Source: a virus
Taxonomy: Duplodnaviria; Heunggongvirae; Uroviricota; Caudoviricetes
Length of the DNA stretch: 10,888 nucleotides
Reading direction: 5' to 3' (one strand)
Virus record (IMG/VR): IMGVR_UViG_2600254997_000025
In this document: positions 1,944 to 10,888 of the stretch, piece by piece
How the letters are laid out: every line of letters begins with the position of its first letter
Position numbering within the stretch: the stretch's first letter is position 1
The notes under the pieces: model-generated
The model's input: only the letters and a program-made list of their open reading frames with translations
Told to the model about the DNA's origin: nothing
Database searches by the model: none
Position numbers and translations under genes: made by a program

Positions 1944-1956
1944 GCCAGTGTATGGG

Positions 1957-2989
1957 TCCACCACATATTGCAATTTTTATTCTCTTTTAAAATATATTCC
2001 ACGGGCGTCATTAGTGCGAGCGCCTTGTGGGGTCTTTTGCTGTTATACAGCACCAGATATTCCGCCAGCTTCTGGTTAAATAGCGCCAGATCTTCAAAGA
2101 GTAAAATCTCATTAAATTCAATAAACTGCTCTCTTAACGTCCGGTTAAACGTTCACAGATAGCGTTTCATTTTTTGGCGTGTAGGGATAGGTCCAGAGGT
2201 TGTTTGATAGCGGCTTTCCTGCAGCGTTTTTGTCGAAGTTTCCCAGGAACTCTTTTCCGTTATCTGTGATTATCTGGCTGATACCGACCGGGAACAACCG
2301 GGCTGCGCGGCTGAAGAAGTGATTGACGATATCACTGTTGAGTGACGGCACAGCCAGCGCCAGCGCGTAATTGCTGCATTCGTCGATCATGGTGATGACA
2401 TAGCGACGCAGTTCGCCCATTCTGAGCTCAATGGCGTCCATCCCAATGAGCTCACCTGTCTTTACCGGGCGGTAGTGCTTTGGCCTGCGGGGTTTGGCAG
2501 ACCGCTTTTGACAAGCAGTGCCTTCCCCCGCGATCCCAGACGCACAGGTATCATCCGCATTTTATCATGTGCGGCAGCGATCATTCTGCCGATGGTGGAA
2601 ACACTCGGACAGGCCAGATAGCGCTGTTCGCACCAGGGCTTCAGGCGAACAAAAATCTGCTCTTTACCGAGGTTCGGCAGCTCTGTCCTGAGGCGTCGAA
2701 TCTCTTTCAGCACATCGGGATGCCAGTGTTTTTTTCGTCGCACCAGAGGTGCCTTACTGTGCGGGATTAGCCCCTCAGGTCCTTCCTTGTTCAGTAACTG
2801 ACGCCACCAGTAAAGCGTGCGGCAGGACACGCCAAAGGCTTCAGAAGCTGCAGAAATACCGTGTTTATCCCAGAAGTGCAGAGCCTTCATTCTCATTGTT
2901 GCTATATCAGCCATCACTGAAAGCCTCAACGCATAATCGGCCGTTTGGTAGTACTTAGGATAGCCAACCATCAGATGCTGCATTTGCAT
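1957..2989 (-). pseudogene. Degraded DDE transposase (IS481-like), split over three frames
   Basis: Track ORF 2462-2989 has an N-terminal HTH-like region (GISAASEAFGVSCRTLYWWRQLL). ORF 2145-2441 has an rve-type core with ITDNGKEF. The start of ORF 1427-2053 has the transposase C-terminal signature [18 protein letters not shown]. The pieces are in different frames with gaps. Confidence 0.5.
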
Positions 2990-3035
2990 AGTGCAATCTC
3001 CCCTTACTTATCCGGAGGCAATTGCAATATCTCTG
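1957..3035 (-). mobile_element. IS remnant of about 1.08 kb inserted between vis and the immunity region; boundaries approximate
   Basis: ATATTGCAATT at 1966-1976 is an inverted copy of AATTGCAATAT at 3020-3030, a candidate terminal inverted-repeat core. Only 11 bp is shared, so the ends are not precisely defined. Confidence 0.4.
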
Positions 3036-3082
3036 TGAACTTACACAGCCAGAAAAAGGGAGTTTTTGCAGAGCGGGCATCA

Positions 3083-3349
3083 TCATGCGTCGTACCCCCG
3101 TTTGCGTCCGGCAATGCGTCCGGCCATCCATGCGGTGACTTCAGAGTGCAGCCAGGCCACATTTTTACCGCCAAGACTCACCTGCGGCGGAAATTCCCCC
3201 TTACGGATGAGTTCGTAGATGGTCGAGCGTGACAGGCCGCACAGGTGCATCACTTCCGGAAGACGTAAAAAACGCTCCTGTGTGATGTCCGGCAGCGGCA
3301 TCAGTGGCGTCACAGGGGCGGGAGACGGGGAAGAAAAAACAGCTTGCAT
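3083..3349 (-). CDS. vis: Vis/AlpA-family HTH regulator (excision/transcription regulator), 88 aa
   Basis: ORF in track. ERFLRLPEVMHLCGLSRSTIYELIRKGEFPPQVSLGGKNVAWLHSEVTAWMAGR matches the AlpA/Vis helix-turn-helix pattern. GAGG lies 7 nt upstream of the ATG. The 88-aa length matches P4 Vis (orf88) as recalled. Confidence 0.75.
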   Translation of the reverse strand: MQAVFSSPSPAPVTPLMPLPDITQERFLRLPEVMHLCGLSRSTIYELIRKGEFPPQVSLGGKNVAWLHSEVTAWMAGRIAGRKRGYDA

Positions 3350-3451
3350 CGGGCTACCTCGTTAATGTCCATACAGCACCGGATAAGTCCGTCCGGCTTC
3401 GGGTAGCGCTTTATTTTGTGAATATTTTCAGCAGACGCAACAGGGGGGATT

Positions 3452-3469
3452 TGTTCCGGCAGCCTTACA
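3452..3469. promoter_or_regulatory. TGT-N12-ACA dyad, candidate Delta/Ogr activator site for a leftward late promoter upstream of vis
   Basis: TGTtccggcagccttACA seen directly. The dyad centre is about 110 nt from the vis ATG, compatible with a site centred near -55 and a leader of about 55 nt. Confidence 0.4.
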
Positions 3470-3495
3470 ATGCTTGTGTATTTTTTGTTCATCTC

Positions 3496-3525
3496 CACTT
3501 AAAGTCATTTAAAGCCACTTAAAGC
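3496..3525. repeat. Three tandem 10-bp direct repeats (CACTTAAAGT / CATTTAAAGC / CACTTAAAGC)
   Basis: Seen directly, with one-helical-turn periodicity, in the divergent intergenic region. Confidence 0.6.
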
Positions 3526-3628
3526 AATTCGTAATTTTTATAGTGAAATACAAATCGTTTTTTCTTATTCATTCCCGGCGAATTAATAAAAACAAACAGT
3601 AATAAACAGCACAAAAAGCCCATCAACG

Positions 3629-3733
3629 GGTGAACAGTGGTGAACAGACGGTGAACAGTCATTACTGCAATTGTTCACCCTTTAACTTACTGTATTACTT
3701 ATCTTTTTTCTTATGGTGAACAGAGGTGAACAG
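3629..3733. repeat. Iteron cluster: five direct GGTGAACAG copies plus one inverted TGTTCACC; resembles P4 alpha-binding iterons (crr/ori-like)
   Basis: GGTGAACAG at 3629-3637, 3639-3647, 3650-3658, 3715-3723 and 3725-3733, spaced 10-11 bp apart. Inverted TGTTCACC at 3672-3679. As recalled, P4 alpha binds TGTTCACC octamers in ori and crr. Confidence 0.55.
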
Positions 3734-3810
3734 TAAAATATAAAAAACAAACAGTAAGCCGGTTTTTCCTGCGACCTTTTCCTGGCTTGCCGGTCTGAGG
3801 ATGAGTCTCC

Positions 3811-3828
3811 TGTGTCAGGGCTGGCACA
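3811..3828. promoter_or_regulatory. TGT-N12-ACA dyad, candidate Delta/Ogr activator site of the sid late promoter (Psid-like)
   Basis: TGTgtcagggctggcACA seen directly. The dyad centre is about 80 nt upstream of the sid ATG at 3901. Confidence 0.45.
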
Positions 3829-3900
3829 TCTGCAATGCGTCGTGTTGTTGTCCGGTGTACGTCACAATTTTCTCAACCTGAAGTGACGAGGAGCCGGAAA

Positions 3901-4635
3901 ATGTCTGACAACACCATCCCTGAATATCTGCAACCCGCACTGGCACAACTGGAAAAGGCCAGAGCCGCCCACCTTGAGAACGCCCGCCTGATGGATGAGA
4001 CCGTCACGGCCATTGAACGGGCAGAGCAGGAAAAAAATGCGCTGACGCAGGCCGACGGAAACGACGCTGACGACTGGCGCACGGCCTTTCGTGCAGCCAG
4101 TGGTGTCCTGAGCGACGAGCTGAAACAGCGCCACATTGAGCGCGTGGCACGCCGGGAGCTGGTACAGGAATATGACAATCTGGCCGTGGTGCTGAATTTT
4201 GAACGCGAACGCCTGAAAGGGGCGTGTGACAGCACGGCCACCGCCTACCGGAAGGCACATCATCACCTTCTGAGTCTGTATGCAGAGCATGAGCTGGAAC
4301 ACGCCCTGAGTGAAACCTGTGAGGCGCTTGTCCGGGCAATGCATCTGAGCATTCTGGTACAGGAAAATCCGCTCGCCAACACCACCGGGCATCAGGGCTA
4401 CGTCGCACCCGATAAAGTTGTCATGCAGCAGGTGAAATCATCTTTGGAACAGAAAATAAAACAGATGCAAATCAGCCTCACCGGCGAGCCGGTTCTCCGG
4501 CTGACCGGACTGTCAGCGGCAACGCTCCCGCACATGGATTATGAGGTGGCAGGCACACCGGCACAGCGCAAGGTGTGGCAGGACAAAATAGACCAGCAGG
4601 GAGCAGAGCTTAAGGCCAGAGGACTGCTGTCATGA
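3901..4635 (+). CDS. sid: Sid-like capsid size-determination (external scaffold) protein, 244 aa
   Basis: Internal ATG at 3901 of track ORF 3835-4635, with GAGGAG (3888-3893) at a 7-nt spacer. Gives 244 aa (MSDNTIPEYLQPALAQLEKARAAHLENARLMDE...). First gene of a sid-delta-psu triplet, and its stop overlaps the delta ATG (ATGA at 4632-4635). The earlier ATG at 3835 lacks an RBS. Confidence 0.75.
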   Translation: MSDNTIPEYLQPALAQLEKARAAHLENARLMDETVTAIERAEQEKNALTQADGNDADDWRTAFRAASGVLSDELKQRHIERVARRELVQEYDNLAVVLNFERERLKGACDSTATAYRKAHHHLLSLYAEHELEHALSETCEALVRAMHLSILVQENPLANTTGHQGYVAPDKVVMQQVKSSLEQKIKQMQISLTGEPVLRLTGLSAATLPHMDYEVAGTPAQRKVWQDKIDQQGAELKARGLLS

Positions 4636-5978: not shown

Positions 5979-6668
5979 TCATTTATTTTGTAATGCCGCA
6001 TCAAATCTGGTCTTGAGATCTTGGAATGGGATAACGAGTTTATCGATATAATCTTTATTATTATTTTGTAGAATTGCTTCAACAAAATCATTTAGAGGTG
6101 CATAGTTTTCTAATACTTTAGAATCGATAAAATCTTTATAGGACATACATTCAGCACCAATGCTAAGGCTTTCACCTATATACTTTTGTTCAAGAGATCT
6201 AATACAAGGAAAACCAATATCGTTCTCTCGTAGGGCTATAGAAATATTTTTGATTAATTCAGTTATTAACATTTCATCATTAGTTGGTGAAAATACAGAT
6301 GAATCTCTATTTTTCCTGAATTGATGTACCCAGCAAAAATATTGGCATAGATAGAATCTTGTACTATCAATATAATATTGATCCGACGATAGGTCATTGT
6401 GATCTTTAATATAACATAGCCTTCCTAAAAAACCATTTGCAGCACTAAGTAATGTTAACCCCCAACGTCCGATTTCAAGATCTCTTGCTTTTTTAAAATT
6501 ATAAGCACGTTCATCCTCTTTAATTCTCTGTTCACTTTCATATTTCAACTTATTTTTAAATGATTCTAACTCTCTTTTATCAATATGTTGTAAAAAAGCC
6601 TTACAAACAAATCCAATAATTGCAAATGAAATGCTTGATGACAAAATACCTTCCCAAAAGCTACTCAT
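5979..6668 (-). CDS. Small protein, 229 aa, with one predicted N-terminal transmembrane helix; third gene of the RT cassette (possible DRT1 partner / effector)
   Basis: ORF in track. Hydrophobic N-terminus FWEGILSSSISFAIIGFVCKAFL. The ATG (6668-6666) overlaps the TGA (6667-6665) of the nitrilase ORF, indicating translational coupling. AT-rich codon usage like the rest of the cassette. Confidence 0.65.
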   Translation of the reverse strand: MSSFWEGILSSSISFAIIGFVCKAFLQHIDKRELESFKNKLKYESEQRIKEDERAYNFKKARDLEIGRWGLTLLSAANGFLGRLCYIKDHNDLSSDQYYIDSTRFYLCQYFCWVHQFRKNRDSSVFSPTNDEMLITELIKNISIALRENDIGFPCIRSLEQKYIGESLSIGAECMSYKDFIDSKVLENYAPLNDFVEAILQNNNKDYIDKLVIPFQDLKTRFDAALQNK

Positions 6669-8512
6669 TTCTCACCTCGCTCTAATAGAGCATTATAGTC
6701 AAACCCTGGAGGATTGTGTTTAATAGTATCGGAGTTAATTCTGAATGAACGATATTGAGCCTCTCTCAATGCATATATATTTAAAGTAGTAGTTAGGATG
6801 CAATTGTTTTCCCCACCTTTTATATATATCTTATTTGAAATAGTGCTACTGGTCGGTTGTAGAACACAAGAACCGCCATAATGCGAAGTATTTGATTGAG
6901 CCACATAACAATGTAAATCCCGTGTCGCTGACTCAGTGATATGTTGATAATAATTTATATCTTGATTCCATACGCAAGCAAATAAAATATCCAACTGCGA
7001 ACGAAATAATGCTCTATGCTCGATATTAGCCAGTTCAAAACAGTTGTATGTAGAAAATGATACGTTTTTCCACTTAATCAAATGATACCGTTGTTTACTA
7101 GGTTTAGGAGAGGATATTTTTAACCTTAAAGAATTCAGCATCGTAATCTCACTAGGTGCGTAATGATTTTTCACTCGAAAAACTAACATACTGGATTTGT
7201 GTTTAAAGTTTGAAGTATAAGGCAGCATTTCAACCAAAATATTATATGCGCGTTCGTTAATAACCCAATGCTCTAATCCGAAAATCAAAGATATTTGTTT
7301 TCTCCTTGAATGTGCTGCCATAAAAGGTAACCACGACACAGGAATTGATAACTCAGGGAGTAGTAATATCTGCACATTTTCTTCAGTTGCCGAGTTGAGA
7401 ATACGATAAAGGTTTCTTTGCCGTTCATAACTTAAATTTGGAGACTGATCTTTTCTGCAAGCACTTTCAATATTACGACGTTCAACTCTCATATTTGCCA
7501 ACGCAACTTTTATTGTGTCATTACCACTTCTATCATCAATTCCTACCTTTATTTCAAGAGCTTTATTATCTTTTATCTTAGTAACAGAGCAATTTTTTAA
7601 GTGATGCTTATTTTCATGCGTAAACTTATGTAGTTTTCTTGTATGAAGAGCATCAATCAAATCGAAAAGCTGCTTTTCATCAGCATGAATATATCTAGGG
7701 GTTTTATTTAATTTATCATTATCAAGTGGAATACCATGCATCTTACTGTATAAATTCTCCTCAGTAAGATCTCCTTTATATTTAGTATAGTTAGCTAAAG
7801 GCCAAGACACTAGATTATGACGAATCAAATTACTGCTTCTAAATCTTTCAATTAGAACAGACATTCCATCGGACTGTTTAATTAAAGATTTCAAACCTTC
7901 CAAAGCTCTATTTTGTGGCTCTTTATCACCTAAAATGACATTTAAATCTAACAAAGCCAAATTCAAACAAAGAGAAATATCAATGTATTTCTGCATTCCA
8001 TTTTTAAGTTTTGGAGATATAACACTATCACCTTCCTTCCACTTCATTTTATTAATTGATTCTTTAATTTGTTTGTAAAAGGCGATTGAAAATCCATATT
8101 TTCTTGTAATTAATGTATACGATAGAACTTTCTCCCATAACCGACTGAACCTTAGAGAATTTTCACCTTTAAAAAACAGCGTTATTTGCTTTAAGGTATT
8201 CTCATTCGATGGAAGATTGCAAAGCCTATGAGCTAAGATATGTGATGATATATATTTTGATAATTCAGTTTCATTCTCTGCCAAACCTACAATACTTCTA
8301 AATTTATTTGCCGAACCATCAAGTAATATATCATAAGCAAATTTATCGAGATCGCTAGATATATGTTCTTCCGGTAAAAAACGAAATGCACTGCTTCTGT
8401 TCTCAATTTCTTGTTTGAAGACTTGTAAACCAGCCAAACTATGATCTTTATTGAAATAATGAAAAATCAATTTATCCTTTTGAATTGGTAATTCATGATA
8501 ACTCTCGGTCAA
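6665..8512 (-). CDS. Nitrilase (C-N hydrolase) domain protein; probably the C-terminal part of an RT-nitrilase fusion (annotated start is TTG)
   Basis: Nitrilase-superfamily catalytic triad context: Glu in ILLLPELS, Lys in LVFRVKNHYAPSE, Cys in TYNCFELANIEHR, plus HYGGSCVLQP. The frame is open 30 codons upstream of the TTG, back to the slippery heptamer in the RT gene. The first in-frame ATG is only at about codon 155. Confidence 0.8.
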   Translation of the reverse strand: MTESYHELPIQKDKLIFHYFNKDHSLAGLQVFKQEIENRSSAFRFLPEEHISSDLDKFAYDILLDGSANKFRSIVGLAENETELSKYISSHILAHRLCNLPSNENTLKQITLFFKGENSLRFSRLWEKVLSYTLITRKYGFSIAFYKQIKESINKMKWKEGDSVISPKLKNGMQKYIDISLCLNLALLDLNVILGDKEPQNRALEGLKSLIKQSDGMSVLIERFRSSNLIRHNLVSWPLANYTKYKGDLTEENLYSKMHGIPLDNDKLNKTPRYIHADEKQLFDLIDALHTRKLHKFTHENKHHLKNCSVTKIKDNKALEIKVGIDDRSGNDTIKVALANMRVERRNIESACRKDQSPNLSYERQRNLYRILNSATEENVQILLLPELSIPVSWLPFMAAHSRRKQISLIFGLEHWVINERAYNILVEMLPYTSNFKHKSSMLVFRVKNHYAPSEITMLNSLRLKISSPKPSKQRYHLIKWKNVSFSTYNCFELANIEHRALFRSQLDILFACVWNQDINYYQHITESATRDLHCYVAQSNTSHYGGSCVLQPTSSTISNKIYIKGGENNCILTTTLNIYALREAQYRSFRINSDTIKHNPPGFDYNALLERGEK

Positions 8513-8580
8513 CGTAAAGCCTTTCTCATCATTCGCTGCCTGTTTGATGAATCCATTAAGGGTTCGCTCTATGAATTTTA

Positions 8581-9540
8581 TTACTTCTTCACCTTTATCT
8601 TCTTTTTTAATGTCCGGGGATGAAAAACTAAAAGAATATCATCCACATAGCGACCGTAGTACGATGGATTAATTTTTGATTTAATATCTTTATCAAAACC
8701 CATTAAATACCAATTAGATAATATGGCAGAAGAAGTAAATCCAATTGGAATGCCTTTTGATGAAGGAGTTGAATGTGTCACACCAATATATGGAGATATT
8801 TTCTCTCTGTATTTTTGATGCATCAACCTCAATTTACTATTCAACAACATAGAAAGAGCTTTAATTTCTTCTAATTGTTCTTCGTCAATAATTCTATCAA
8901 TGGCATCAAAATCTATATCTATATTATAATAAAAACCCTTAAGATCCAGAGAAAGAATTGCAACATCATTTCGCTCTTTTTCTATAACTTCTATCGCTTT
9001 ATCGATACCACCATCTCGCCATTTATTATAATTATCAATGTATCTTTCAAAGATATTTTTTGAGGAGTTTTTTGGCGCATCGAAACTATTCTTAGAATAT
9101 TTTTTTATTACTTTTGATATTCTATTTCCATAAACCGAATCAGAAAACTTGTCATCTAGCATTGAACCAACAAAGATAGACCAGAGTGTTTCTATTAAAT
9201 ATATTTCAATAGGAGCAACGATCAAATAATTTACAGCACCTACTTTGTATTCATCTGATGTCTTATTATTACTTAAAAAAAGAGCTCCGCTCGTTTGCTC
9301 AATATCCAAATGGCTATCAATTATTTTTGGTAATAATTCAACATCAATTTTATTTAGCCACTCATTAAAGTTAATGTCATTATTATTTTCAAAAAAATCA
9401 ACCACTTTTTCTATTTTTTCGTCATAGAGAGAATCTTCAAATTGAGCGATTTCTTCCTTTAGGAAAAAATTTAAGTTTTCGTAGTAAGCATATGACTTAA
9501 GACAATTATATGCACTAACAACTATATCTTTTGTAATCAT
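8581..9540 (-). CDS. Reverse transcriptase (UG/Abi-type, defence-associated), 319 aa in this frame
   Basis: RT palm motifs: LSLDLKGFYYNIDIDF, GIPIGFTSSAILSNWYLMGFD (the GxPQG..S..L.N.YL-type motif) and YYGRYVDDILLVF (the YxDD catalytic motif). The ORF ends 6 codons after an A_AAA_AAG heptamer. Confidence 0.85.
   Translation of the reverse strand: MITKDIVVSAYNCLKSYAYYENLNFFLKEEIAQFEDSLYDEKIEKVVDFFENNNDINFNEWLNKIDVELLPKIIDSHLDIEQTSGALFLSNNKTSDEYKVGAVNYLIVAPIEIYLIETLWSIFVGSMLDDKFSDSVYGNRISKVIKKYSKNSFDAPKNSSKNIFERYIDNYNKWRDGGIDKAIEVIEKERNDVAILSLDLKGFYYNIDIDFDAIDRIIDEEQLEEIKALSMLLNSKLRLMHQKYREKISPYIGVTHSTPSSKGIPIGFTSSAILSNWYLMGFDKDIKSKINPSYYGRYVDDILLVFHPRTLKKKIKVKK
8602..8608 (-). other. A_AAA_AAG slippery heptamer at the RT/nitrilase frame junction
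   Basis: On the minus strand ACA TTA AAA AAG AAG reads A_AAA_AAG in the RT zero frame. A -1 shift here continues GAA GAT AAA GGT ... with no stop into the nitrilase ORF, exactly 30 codons to the TTG at 8512. Confidence 0.5.
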
Positions 9541-9631
9541 AACGCATCATTCCGTGTATAAGTCTGTTATAGATGAAAGTAAAACTGAAATTGATTAATA
9601 CCTAACAAAAACATACAGAAAAAATCAATTA

Positions 9632-10888
9632 TTAATATTTTTTTGCAAAATCAAATGGTGTTACGAAAGTCTCACGATTTGCTGATAGGAAATCCGCCCA
9701 CCATTGCATCATCAATCGACGTTCGTCCAAATGCTCTGAAGTATGGATATAAGCTGCACGAACATTATTGCGCTCCGAGTGGCTTAACTGACGTTCTATC
9801 GCATCATCACTCCAAAGCCCCGACTCCCCCAAAGCACCACCCGCCATTGTTCTAAAACCATGCCCACATACTTCCGTTTGTGTGTCGTAGCCCATAGTCC
9901 TGAGCGCATTATTAACTGTGTTTTCGCTCATAACTTTATTGGGATCATGATCACCGGGAAACAGTCTAGGATTATCTCCACTAAGCTTCTTCAACTCATC
10001 CAGCAAAGCTAGAGCCTGAGTGCTCAATGGAACAATATGTTCCTCTTTCATCTTCATCCCACGATAGGAGTAACGCACACCTTCGATTTCTTCACGCCGC
10101 GCCGGTATCCGCCAGCAGGCGTTATCAAAATCAAACTCATCCCATCGGGCAAATCGCATCTCACTAGAGCGAACGAAGGTAAGTAGAGATAACTCGACTG
10201 CAATACGCGTCATTTTGCGGCCACGATATGCCGCAAGGCGTGCCAGAAACTCAGGGAAACGGCTGGAAGGTAGAGCTGGATAGTGTCGTGCTTTAGTTGT
10301 CGATAACGCACCAGCCATATCGCTAGCCGGGTTCGAGTCGATATAATCGTTCTGTACGGCATACCGCATAATGGCCGTGACGCGCTGTTGCAGGCGCTGA
10401 GCGACGTCGTGTTTACCACTGACATCAACTTTTTTAATCGGGGCTAATAGGTGGCTAGTTTTGAGCTGGCGAATGTCGGACGAACCGATATGAGGGAAGA
10501 TATAAAGCTCAAGATAGCGAAGAACACGCGATCGATGGTCTTCACTCCAGCGCTTGTTACTGGCATGCCATTCGCGAGCAATGGTTTCGAAGGTATATAC
10601 CCCCGAATTCTCGGCCTGAGCTTCTTTCTGTTCGGCTTTTGGGTCAATGCCCTGCACTAACAGCTTTTTAGCTTCGTCGCGCTTTGCTCTTGCCTGAGCA
10701 AGCGTCACTGTAGGCCAAACACCAAAAGCGAGGCGATCCTCTTTTTTGTCAGAGGGGCGTCGGTATTTCATGCGCCAGTATTTAGAACCCTTGGCCGAAA
10801 CCTCGAGATACAAACCGCCGCCATCGGCCATTTTGTATGTTTTGTCTTTTGGCTTTGCGGTCTCGACCTGTCTGGCGTTGAGCTTCAT
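9632..10888 (-). CDS. int: P4-type tyrosine integrase (site-specific recombinase), 418 aa
   Basis: ORF in track. N-terminus MKLNARQVETAKPKDKTYKMADGGGLYLEV is typical of P4-family integrase arm-binding domains. C-terminal catalytic region with R (TFVRSSE), HGFR and the Tyr context VRAAYIHTSEH. The ATG sits at the last 3 bases of the window. Confidence 0.9.
   Translation of the reverse strand: MKLNARQVETAKPKDKTYKMADGGGLYLEVSAKGSKYWRMKYRRPSDKKEDRLAFGVWPTVTLAQARAKRDEAKKLLVQGIDPKAEQKEAQAENSGVYTFETIAREWHASNKRWSEDHRSRVLRYLELYIFPHIGSSDIRQLKTSHLLAPIKKVDVSGKHDVAQRLQQRVTAIMRYAVQNDYIDSNPASDMAGALSTTKARHYPALPSSRFPEFLARLAAYRGRKMTRIAVELSLLTFVRSSEMRFARWDEFDFDNACWRIPARREEIEGVRYSYRGMKMKEEHIVPLSTQALALLDELKKLSGDNPRLFPGDHDPNKVMSENTVNNALRTMGYDTQTEVCGHGFRTMAGGALGESGLWSDDAIERQLSHSERNNVRAAYIHTSEHLDERRLMMQWWADFLSANRETFVTPFDFAKKY

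What the first reader, a model, noticed from the sequence alone, without database searches (positions are those of the whole stretch)
3452..3828. Iteron cluster flanked by two TGT-N12-ACA dyads in the divergent vis/sid intergenic region
Five direct GGTGAACAG copies plus one inverted TGTTCACC (3629-3733) and three tandem 10-bp repeats (3496-3525) sit between two TGT-N12-ACA dyads (3452-3469, 3811-3828). The octamer is what I recall as the P4 alpha-protein iteron (crr/ori). The dyads are positioned appropriately for Delta/Ogr-activated late promoters firing leftward into vis and rightward into sid. One compact region therefore seems to combine replication control and late transcription.
Basis: partly seen in the sequence, partly recalled or inferred. 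Interest (0 to 1): 0.45.

Follow-up and report, generated by a model that had tools for sequence, protein, structure and literature searches.

The report
Known P4 satellite origin and late promoters
This stretch is the already characterised replication origin of a P4-type phage satellite, flanked by its two helper-activated late promoters and a helper-sensing (Cox-box) array; it is ordinary and occurs in about one in five complete E. coli genomes.

Summary
In detail: every repeat and dyad is at the stated coordinates. The region is 97.4% identical to phage P4 (X51522 8981-9632). That record annotates it as the origin of DNA replication, with six 'ori type 1' and three 'ori type 2' repeats. It is therefore P4 ori (ori1), not crr. 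crr lies between attP and the 3' end of alpha, outside this window.

The two dyads match the Delta/Ogr sites of PLL (leftward into vis) and Psid (rightward into sid).

The 'three tandem 10-bp repeats' match the published P2 Cox-box consensus TTAAA(G/C)NC(A/C). They are the helper Cox site upstream of PLL, not replication control.

The region occurs in 1007 of 5426 complete E. coli genomes. In 81 related intergenic regions (window and P4 included) everything is 92-100% conserved except the Cox-box cassette.

That cassette has discrete equal-length alleles. Allele A resembles P2 Cox operators, C a Wphi site, and D (in a divergent element) 186 Apl operators. All satellite proteins stay 96-100% identical whichever of alleles A-C is carried. 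This side observation is the only possibly new element.

Verdict: already known; low interest.

The parts
3083..3349 (-). vis (P4 ORF88), the first gene of the PLL-driven leftward operon
   Evidence: 88-aa ORF. It is 98.9% identical to P4 ORF88. Annotated as an HTH regulator in E. coli relatives.
3403..3418 (-). Predicted PLL core: -10-like CAAAAT (minus strand, 3418-3413) and predicted start near 3405
   Evidence: Inferred from the dyad centre (3460.5) minus 55 bp, using the P2 geometry. The sequence was read. The stretch is 100% conserved in 80 relatives. Not measured.
3452..3469 (.). PLL activator (Delta/Ogr) dyad TGTTCCGGCAGCCTTACA
   Evidence: The TGT and ACA arms are identical to P4, and the three substitutions fall only in the spacer. 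Conserved in relatives.
3488..3546 (+). Cox-box array (allele A). Strong boxes are TTAAAGTCA 3499-3507, TTAAAGCCA 3509-3517 and TTAAAGCAA 3519-3527; weaker boxes sit at 3488 and 3538. This is the same feature as X51522's 'ori type 2 repeats'.
   Evidence: Box scores are. The consensus TTAAA(G/C)NC(A/C), the 10-11 bp spacing and Cox binding upstream of P4 PLL come from PMC3936717. The best hit of this array in the whole P2 genome is the Pc/Cox operator at 25951-25985.
3581..3602 (+). Left copy of a direct repeat (AACAAACAGTAA core) that brackets the iteron block
   Evidence: the repeat finder family D2. Function unknown.
3629..3658 (+). Type 1 iterons 1-3 (GGTGAACAG at 3629, 3639 and 3650)
   Evidence: Annotated 'ori type 1 repeat' in X51522. 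Invariant in 80 relatives.
3672..3679 (-). Type 1 iteron 4, in inverted orientation (TGTTCACC)
3680..3714 (.). 35-bp A+T-rich spacer (20% G+C), the likely unwinding region of ori1
   Evidence: composition; sequence. Conservation is 0.95-1.00. Its role is taken from my memory of Tocchetti et al. 1999, which I could not read here.
3715..3733 (+). Type 1 iterons 5-6 (GGTGAACAG at 3715 and 3725)
3736..3757 (+). Right copy of the bracketing direct repeat
   Evidence: family D2.
3811..3828 (.). Psid activator dyad I, TGTGTCAGGGCTGGCACA
   Evidence: Identical to P4. It shares TGTGTCAG with the P2 PO/PP activator site.
3849..3866 (.). Psid dyad II, TGTCCGGTGTACGTCACA, overlapping the -10 region (centre about -18)
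   Evidence: Identical to P4 and 100% conserved. Its assignment as a second Delta site is from memory (Julien & Calendar 1995; Reiter et al. 1998).
3863..3876 (+). Predicted Psid -10-like CACAAT (3863-3868) and predicted start near 3875
   Evidence: Inferred from the dyad I centre (3819.5) plus 55 bp. No full sigma-70 promoter is present. Not measured.
3901..4635 (+). sid, the first gene of the sid-delta-psu late operon
   Evidence: 97.5% identical to P4 Sid.

Best explanation
The vis-sid intergenic region of this P4-family prophage carries four known modules in about 550 bp.

1. ori1, the replication origin. It has six type 1 iterons (three direct, one inverted, two direct; start-to-start spacings of 10, 11, 22, 43 and 10 bp) around a 35-bp A+T-rich spacer. 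The C-terminal winged-helix domain of the alpha primase-helicase binds the iterons and opens the DNA. Replication also needs the second iteron site, crr, in cis; crr lies beyond the left end of the window.

2. PLL, firing leftward into vis. Its TGT-N12-ACA site for the zinc-finger activators P4 Delta or helper Ogr lies about 55 bp upstream of the predicted start.

3. A head-to-tail array of P2 Cox boxes just upstream of the PLL activator site, facing away from the promoter. Through it the helper's Cox protein switches on the satellite's left operon.

4. Psid, firing rightward into sid-delta-psu. It has one activator dyad at about -55 and a second at about -18.

Shown here: sequence identity to P4 and to its annotated features, and the pattern of conservation. 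Inferred by homology: protein binding, start sites and activity in this particular copy.
For: - Window 3300-3950 is 97.4% identical to P4 X51522 8981-9632.
- None of the substitutions relative to P4 touches an iteron, a decamer repeat or a TGT/ACA arm.
- crr is annotated elsewhere in P4, at 4291-4590.
- In the P2 record the activator sites are centred 55-58 bp upstream of the annotated late start sites. The same geometry puts the starts 26 nt upstream of the sid ATG and 56 nt upstream of the vis ATG, each preceded by a CA(A/C)AAT -10-like hexamer.
- No complete sigma-70 promoter is present, as expected for activator-dependent promoters.
- PMC3936717 gives the Cox-box consensus and spacing and states that Cox binds upstream of PLL. 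Three boxes score 8/8, 8/8 and 7/8 at exact 10-bp steps.
- The best match of the array in the whole P2 genome is the Cox operator at Pc.
- Conservation in 80 relatives is 0.92-1.00 everywhere except the Cox-box cassette and one 10-bp patch.
- Six exact iterons are present in 65 of 81 regions and three dyads in 78 of 81.
Against: - Nothing was measured in this copy: no start sites and no binding.
- The primary P4 papers on ori1, Delta footprints and Cox footprints are not in the held library. The minimal-origin limits, the -18 site and the PLL/Psid start positions therefore rest on my memory of them.
- The dyad count alone is not above chance.
- Only three strong Cox boxes are present, whereas 'at least six copies' are described. 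The extra ones here score only 6/8.
- This element may be decaying. It has a 1.1-kb IS remnant inside the left operon and a frameshifted cargo gene. Only the first ~76 codons of alpha are in the window, so the activity of this origin copy is unproven.
Confidence: 0.92

Rival explanations
1. The iteron cluster is crr, the cis replication region, rather than ori.
For: crr also contains type 1 iterons that alpha binds: ten are annotated in P4 at 4291-4590.
Against: - crr is defined by two 120-bp direct repeats lying between attP and the 3' end of alpha. No 120-bp repeat exists here.
- The region aligns to P4 9031-9582, not to 4291-4590.
- In the 99.8%-identical prophage L004 the crr-type iterons lie at 2828-3090. 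That is more than 2 kb to the left of window position 1.
Confidence: 0.02
2. The three 10-bp repeats are binding sites for a satellite-encoded protein (Vis, alpha or Cnr) that couples replication with PLL control, rather than sites for a helper protein.
For: - X51522 labels them 'ori type 2 repeat'.
- Recombination directionality factors such as Vis bind tandem repeats one helical turn apart (PMC7498355).
- Vis is known to regulate PLL (cited in PMC2603039).
Against: - The same Vis protein (WP_001149160.1) is encoded next to different cassette alleles.
- Alpha, ORF106, ORF151, Eps, Vis, Sid, Delta and Psu are all 96-100% identical to P4 regardless of allele A, B or C. No satellite protein co-varies with the cassette.
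- The motif does not recur as an array in the P4 attP region, where Vis binds.
- The sequence matches the published Cox-box consensus.
Confidence: 0.06
3. The sites are intact in sequence but are a relic. This prophage copy is defective, so the origin and promoters no longer function in vivo.
For: - A 1,098-bp insertion carrying truncated transposase ORFs sits between vis and the immunity region. It is absent from the 99.8%-identical L004.
- The cargo reverse transcriptase is frameshifted.
Against: - All cis elements are intact and identical in their functional positions to P4.
- Vis, Eps, ORF151, ORF106, Sid, Delta and Psu are full length at 97-100% identity.
- The frameshift could be a sequencing error.
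Confidence: 0.2

Closest known systems
Bacteriophage P4 ori (ori1), X51522 9086-9809
   Same: 97.4% nucleotide identity. It has the same six type 1 iterons in the same order, orientation and spacing, the same 35-bp A+T-rich spacer, and the same position between ORF88/vis and sid.
   Different: There are 14 substitutions and one 1-nt deletion over 571 bp, none in an annotated repeat. This copy is an integrated prophage with different cargo and an IS remnant nearby.
Bacteriophage P4 crr, X51522 4291-4590
   Same: It uses the same alpha-binding octamer.
   Different: crr is two 120-bp direct repeats next to attP and the alpha terminator. The region studied here has no such duplication and lies 4.7-5 kb away from crr.
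P2/P4 late promoters activated by Ogr/Delta (P2 PP, PO, PV, PF; P4 Psid, PLL)
   Same: A TGT-N12-ACA element lies about 55 bp upstream of the start, there is no -35 element, and the two promoters are arranged divergently like P2 PP/PO.
   Different: The P4-type dyads are perfect, whereas the P2 sites are imperfect. Psid carries a second dyad over its -10 region.
P2 Cox operator arrays (Pe-Pc switch and attP) and the Cox site upstream of P4 PLL
   Same: Head-to-tail 9-bp boxes of the form TTAAA(G/C)NC(A/C) at 10-bp steps. The best genome-wide match in P2 is the Pc operator.
   Different: Only three strong boxes are present here. In other P4-family elements the array is replaced by alleles B, C and D.
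Iteron-controlled plasmid origins (for example R6K, pSC101, P1)
   Same: Directly repeated initiator-binding sites at helical-repeat spacing next to an A+T-rich unwinding region.
   Different: In P4 the initiator is itself the primase-helicase, and a second distant iteron site (crr) is needed in cis. The statement that P4 replication is independent of DnaA is from memory (Tocchetti et al. 1999) and was not tested here.

Membership tests
P4 ori1 | Six type 1 iterons (TGTTCACC/GGTGAACA), arranged three direct, one inverted, two direct, at near-helical spacing | tested here: met
   Spacings are 10, 11, 22, 43 and 10 bp.
P4 ori1 | A+T-rich segment (about 35 bp) within the iteron block | tested here: met
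   3680-3714 is 35 bp at 20% G+C. The requirement itself is recalled from Tocchetti et al. 1999, which I could not read here.
P4 ori1 | Position between vis (ORF88) and sid, and homology to the annotated P4 rep_origin | tested here: met
P4 ori1 | Binding by the alpha protein and alpha-dependent replication together with crr in cis | not testable with these tools
   Only the first ~228 nt of alpha are in the window, and crr is outside it.
P4 crr | Two 120-bp direct repeats, each with five type 1 iterons, located between attP and the 3' end of alpha | tested here: not met
   No 120-bp repeat is present. The region aligns to P4 9031-9582, not 4291-4590.
Ogr/Delta-dependent late promoter | TGT-N12-ACA activator site | tested here: met
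   Sites at 3452-3469, 3811-3828 and 3849-3866. The consensus is cited in PMC3931495.
Ogr/Delta-dependent late promoter | Activator site centred about 55 bp upstream of the transcription start | not testable with these tools
   The geometry is taken from the P2 annotation. The predicted starts near 3875 and 3405 have plausible -10 hexamers but were not measured.
Ogr/Delta-dependent late promoter | No recognisable -35 element; dependence on an activator | tested here: inconclusive
   The consensus scan found no full sigma-70 promoter in 3300-3950, against 0.9 expected in shuffles. That is compatible with the feature but weak.
P2 Cox-box array | Multiple boxes of TTAAA(G/C)NC(A/C) in one orientation at 10-11 bp steps | tested here: met
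   Boxes score 8/8, 8/8 and 7/8 at 3499, 3509 and 3519. The consensus is from PMC3936717.
P2 Cox-box array | At least six boxes, giving a footprint of about 70 bp | tested here: inconclusive
   Only three boxes are strong. Candidates at 3488, 3538 and 3544 score 6/8, which is common by chance.
P2 Cox-box array | Located upstream of PLL and facing away from the promoter | tested here: met
   The boxes are on the + strand, 30-75 bp to the right of the PLL dyad, while PLL fires leftward.

The most novel reading that the evidence does not exclude

P4-family satellites whose proteins are 96-100% identical carry three discrete, equal-length alleles, A, B and C; a fourth allele, D, was found only in a more divergent P4-like element (GF3-3), whose proteins were not compared. 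Each allele is built of tandem ~10-bp units. Three of them resemble the operators of the excisionase/switch protein of a different P2-like helper: A resembles P2 Cox, C resembles Wphi Cox and D resembles 186 Apl.

Satellites would thus retune which helper's early protein wakes them by swapping only this cassette. I found no description of this in the searched library.
Probability: 0.5. Interest if true: 0.55.

Novelty: already known. Interest (0 to 1): 0.2.

Why it matters
For the finding itself, little is added. It re-identifies the textbook P4 origin and late-promoter region in one of many E. coli P4-like prophages (1007 of 5426 complete genomes). It is useful mainly as correct annotation: ori rather than crr, Cox boxes rather than replication repeats, and two Delta sites at Psid.

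The side observation could matter more. If the Cox-box cassette alleles really match different helpers' excisionase/switch proteins, they give a simple sequence marker for predicting which P2-like helper activates a given satellite. They would also be an example of helper specificity evolving by swapping a cis element without any protein change.

Tried and rejected
- **crr reading.** Rejected on the annotation and the alignment.
- **Vis-box hypothesis for the 10-bp repeats.** Rejected. Identical Vis proteins sit next to different alleles, and there is no similar array in the P4 attP region.
- **Co-variation of the cassette with a satellite protein.** None found.
- **Database-wide BLAST of the 50-nt cassettes against all phage records.** Too insensitive. 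Only allele D gave a significant hit (E = 8e-4), next to int of an Eganvirus.
- **Partner for allele B.** Only a weak match to the PSP3 pag-int spacer (score 13 against a null maximum of 12), which I do not trust.
- **Genome-contig scan with Sid.** Returned a single locus, so the comparison rests on IMG/VR and E. coli relatives with Sid at least 94% identical, plus one divergent element.
- **Primary P4 literature** (Tocchetti 1999, Reiter 1998, Julien & Calendar 1995, Ziegelin 1993, Halling & Calendar 1990, Lindqvist 1993, Christie & Dokland 2012). Not held.
- **Old X02534 annotation.** Its predicted '-10', '5' UTR' and 'put. ori consensus' features are 1984 predictions and were not used.

Full report
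**Observation**

- five direct GGTGAACAG copies at 3629, 3639, 3650, 3715 and 3725;
- one inverted TGTTCACC at 3672-3679;
- three tandem decamers, CCACTTAAAG/TCATTTAAAG/CCACTTAAAG, at 3496-3525;
- TGT-N12-ACA dyads at 3452-3469 and 3811-3828.

The octamer is far above chance: 6 copies against 0.26 expected, with none of 200 shuffles reaching 6. The dyad pattern is not above chance by count: 5 against 2.19 expected, with 16 of 200 shuffles reaching 5. Three of the five dyads do fall inside the 552-bp intergenic region.

The flanking genes are vis/ORF88 (3083-3349, minus strand) and sid (3901-4635, plus strand). They are 98.9% and 97.5% identical to the P4 proteins.

**Identity**

Window 3300-3950 is 97.4% identical to phage P4 X51522 8981-9632. 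That record annotates the stretch as 'origin of DNA replication' (9086-9809).

The pairwise alignment shows 14 substitutions and one 1-nt deletion over 571 bp. None lies in an iteron, a decamer or a TGT/ACA arm, and three fall in the spacer of the PLL dyad.

The whole-genome annotation places crr elsewhere: two 120-bp direct repeats with ten type 1 iterons at 4291-4590, between attP and the alpha terminator. The feature is therefore ori (ori1 in later nomenclature), not crr.

The window runs from the first ~228 nt of alpha to the start codon of int, so crr lies off its left end. In the 99.8%-identical E. coli prophage L004, crr-type iterons sit at 2828-3090, more than 2 kb to the left of window position 1.

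**Origin anatomy**

The iteron start-to-start spacings are 10, 11, 22, 43 and 10 bp, all close to multiples of the helical repeat. The 35 bp between the inverted iteron and the last pair (3680-3714) is 20% G+C, against 45% for the window as a whole.

This fits my recollection of Tocchetti et al. 1999 (J Virol 73:7308), which described a 123-bp minimal ori1 with six iterons and a 35-bp A+T-rich region. I could not read that paper here, so it remains a recollection.

The alpha protein carries a C-terminal winged-helix origin-binding domain after its primase and SF3 helicase domains (PMC2777425).

**Late promoters**

The P2 record supplies a calibration. Its annotated activator sites are centred 55-58 bp upstream of the annotated start sites of PO, PP, PV and PF. 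TGT-N12-ACA is the cited consensus for those sites (PMC3931495).

Applied to the window, this geometry gives two predictions:
- A Psid start near 3875, which is 26 nt upstream of the sid ATG and preceded by CACAAT at 3863-3868.
- A PLL start near 3405, which is 56 nt upstream of the vis ATG and preceded by CAAAAT on the minus strand at 3418-3413.

No full sigma-70 promoter is found in the region, which is compatible with activator dependence.

The third dyad, at 3849-3866, is centred 38 bp downstream of the first Psid dyad, at about -18. This agrees with my memory of a second Delta site in Psid (Julien & Calendar 1995; Reiter et al. 1998), but neither paper is held. Start sites were not measured.

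**The 10-bp repeats are Cox boxes**

PMC3936717 states three things. P2 Cox binds upstream of the P4 PLL promoter. Its sites, the cox-boxes, have the consensus TTAAA(G/C)NC(A/C). They are spaced 10-11 bp apart and, at PLL, face away from the promoter.

The window has TTAAAGTCA (3499), TTAAAGCCA (3509) and TTAAAGCAA (3519). These score 8/8, 8/8 and 7/8 at exact 10-bp steps on the plus strand, that is, pointing away from the leftward PLL. Single boxes are common by chance (35 at 7/8 or better in the window, against 33.7 in shuffles), so it is the phased triplet that carries the signal.

Scanning the whole P2 genome with this array gives its best hit at 25951-25985, which overlaps the Pc promoter where Cox acts.

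The record's label 'ori type 2 repeat' is therefore misleading. These repeats belong to transcriptional activation by the helper, not to replication.

**Comparative data**

The intergenic region occurs in 1007 of 5426 complete E. coli genomes, always on the chromosome.

I compared 81 intergenic regions: 77 from IMG/VR loci with Sid at least 94% identical, one from a genome contig (L010), P4, the window, and the divergent GF3-3 element, which was left out of the conservation profile. Conservation in 10-bp bins is 0.92-1.00 everywhere except 3480-3539 (0.70-0.87) and 3570-3579 (0.78). Six exact iterons are present in 65 of 81 regions and three dyads in 78 of 81.

Even the divergent GF3-3 element keeps the iteron block almost unchanged.

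**Cassette alleles (side finding)**

The variable stretch is not noise. It exists as discrete alleles of identical length:

| Allele | Sequence signature | Loci in comparison set | Complete E. coli genomes |
|---|---|---|---|
| A | P4 and window type, TTAAAG x3 | 36 | 439 |
| B | ...GCTTTAAAACGCTCTGGAAGGAGCTGGAA... | 26 | 373 |
| C | ...GGACTGGAAGGGTCTCAAAGGGTTCTGAAGG... | 18 | 238 |
| D | GGCAAAC repeated at 10-bp steps (GF3-3 element) | not in that set | 15 |

Alpha, ORF106, ORF151, Eps, Vis, Sid, Delta and Psu are 96-100% identical to P4 whichever of alleles A-C is carried. The binding partner is therefore unlikely to be encoded by the satellite.

I compared each allele with known or positionally equivalent binding regions for helper recombination directionality factors. 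The comparison used ungapped local scores against 300 shuffles and produced a diagonal pattern:
- A against P2 Pe-Pc: score 19, null maximum 14.
- C against the Wphi attP-int spacer: score 14, null maximum 12 (GGACTGGAAGGGTCTCAAAG against GGACTGGAAGGGCTACAAAG).
- D against the annotated 186 Apl operators at pR-pL: score 18, null maximum 12.
- D against the 186 Apl operators at attP: score 16, null maximum 10.

Within the 4-kb 186 segment, the two best hits of allele D are exactly the two annotated Apl arrays. Its only significant hit across all 50,697 phage records lies next to int of a 186-like Eganvirus.

Allele B has no convincing partner. The Wphi match is short. From memory, Wphi Cox can also activate P4 PLL, which argues against strict specificity. 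I rate the helper-matching reading at about 0.5.

**Verdict**

The finding is the known P4 ori flanked by PLL and Psid.
- The iteron identity and the late-promoter dyads are right.
- The crr label is wrong.
- The role assigned to the decamers is wrong.
- One dyad was missed.

Novelty: already known. Interest is low, apart from the cassette-allele observation.

Noticed in passing
window 3480-3539; loci L009-L088: The Cox-box cassette upstream of PLL exists as discrete equal-length alleles (A, B, C, plus D in a divergent element) among satellites whose proteins are otherwise 96-100% identical. Allele A resembles P2 Cox operators, C a Wphi attP-proximal site and D the 186 Apl operators. Alleles are found in 439, 373, 238 and 15 of 5426 complete E. 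coli genomes respectively.
   Followed up: yes
window 1949-3046: A 1,098-bp insertion is present relative to the 99.8%-identical E. coli prophage L004. It carries a 175-aa HTH/IS481-type transposase N-terminus (2462-2989, minus strand) and a 98-aa partial rve integrase core (2145-2441, minus strand). This is a truncated IS remnant sitting inside the PLL-driven left operon, between vis and the immunity region.
   Followed up: partly
window 5979-9540: The cargo between psu and int is a defence-associated reverse transcriptase system: RTasTM (229 aa, 5979-6668, minus strand) plus an RT_UG5-nitrilase. The latter is split by a frameshift into 8581-9540 (profile positions 1-316) and 6665-8512 (profile positions 344-958). 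The gene is intact (958 aa) in L004. This is either a pseudogene or a sequencing error.
   Followed up: partly
window 3849-3866: A third perfect TGT-N12-ACA dyad overlaps the predicted Psid -10 region, 38 bp downstream of the first Psid dyad. It is 100% conserved in relatives and is probably the second Delta site of Psid.
   Followed up: partly
window 3581-3602 and 3736-3757: A direct repeat with the core AAAAACAAACAGTAA brackets the iteron block, 155 bp apart. It is conserved in relatives and is not annotated in P4. Function unknown.
   Followed up: no
window 3570-3579: A second small variable patch in an otherwise conserved spacer between the Cox boxes and the iterons: CATTCCCGGC here and in P4, against TATTTCAGTG in many relatives.
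   Followed up: no
window 9632-10888; loci L010-L088: The integrase is 90.7% identical to P4 Int here but only 35-39% identical in many otherwise near-identical satellites. This points to exchange of the int/att module. In L004 the element abuts a tRNA-Leu gene.
   Followed up: no
window 3486-3493 (minus strand): A one-mismatch iteron, GATGAACA, sits between the PLL dyad and the Cox boxes. The same sequence is present in P4 at 9167-9174.
   Followed up: no
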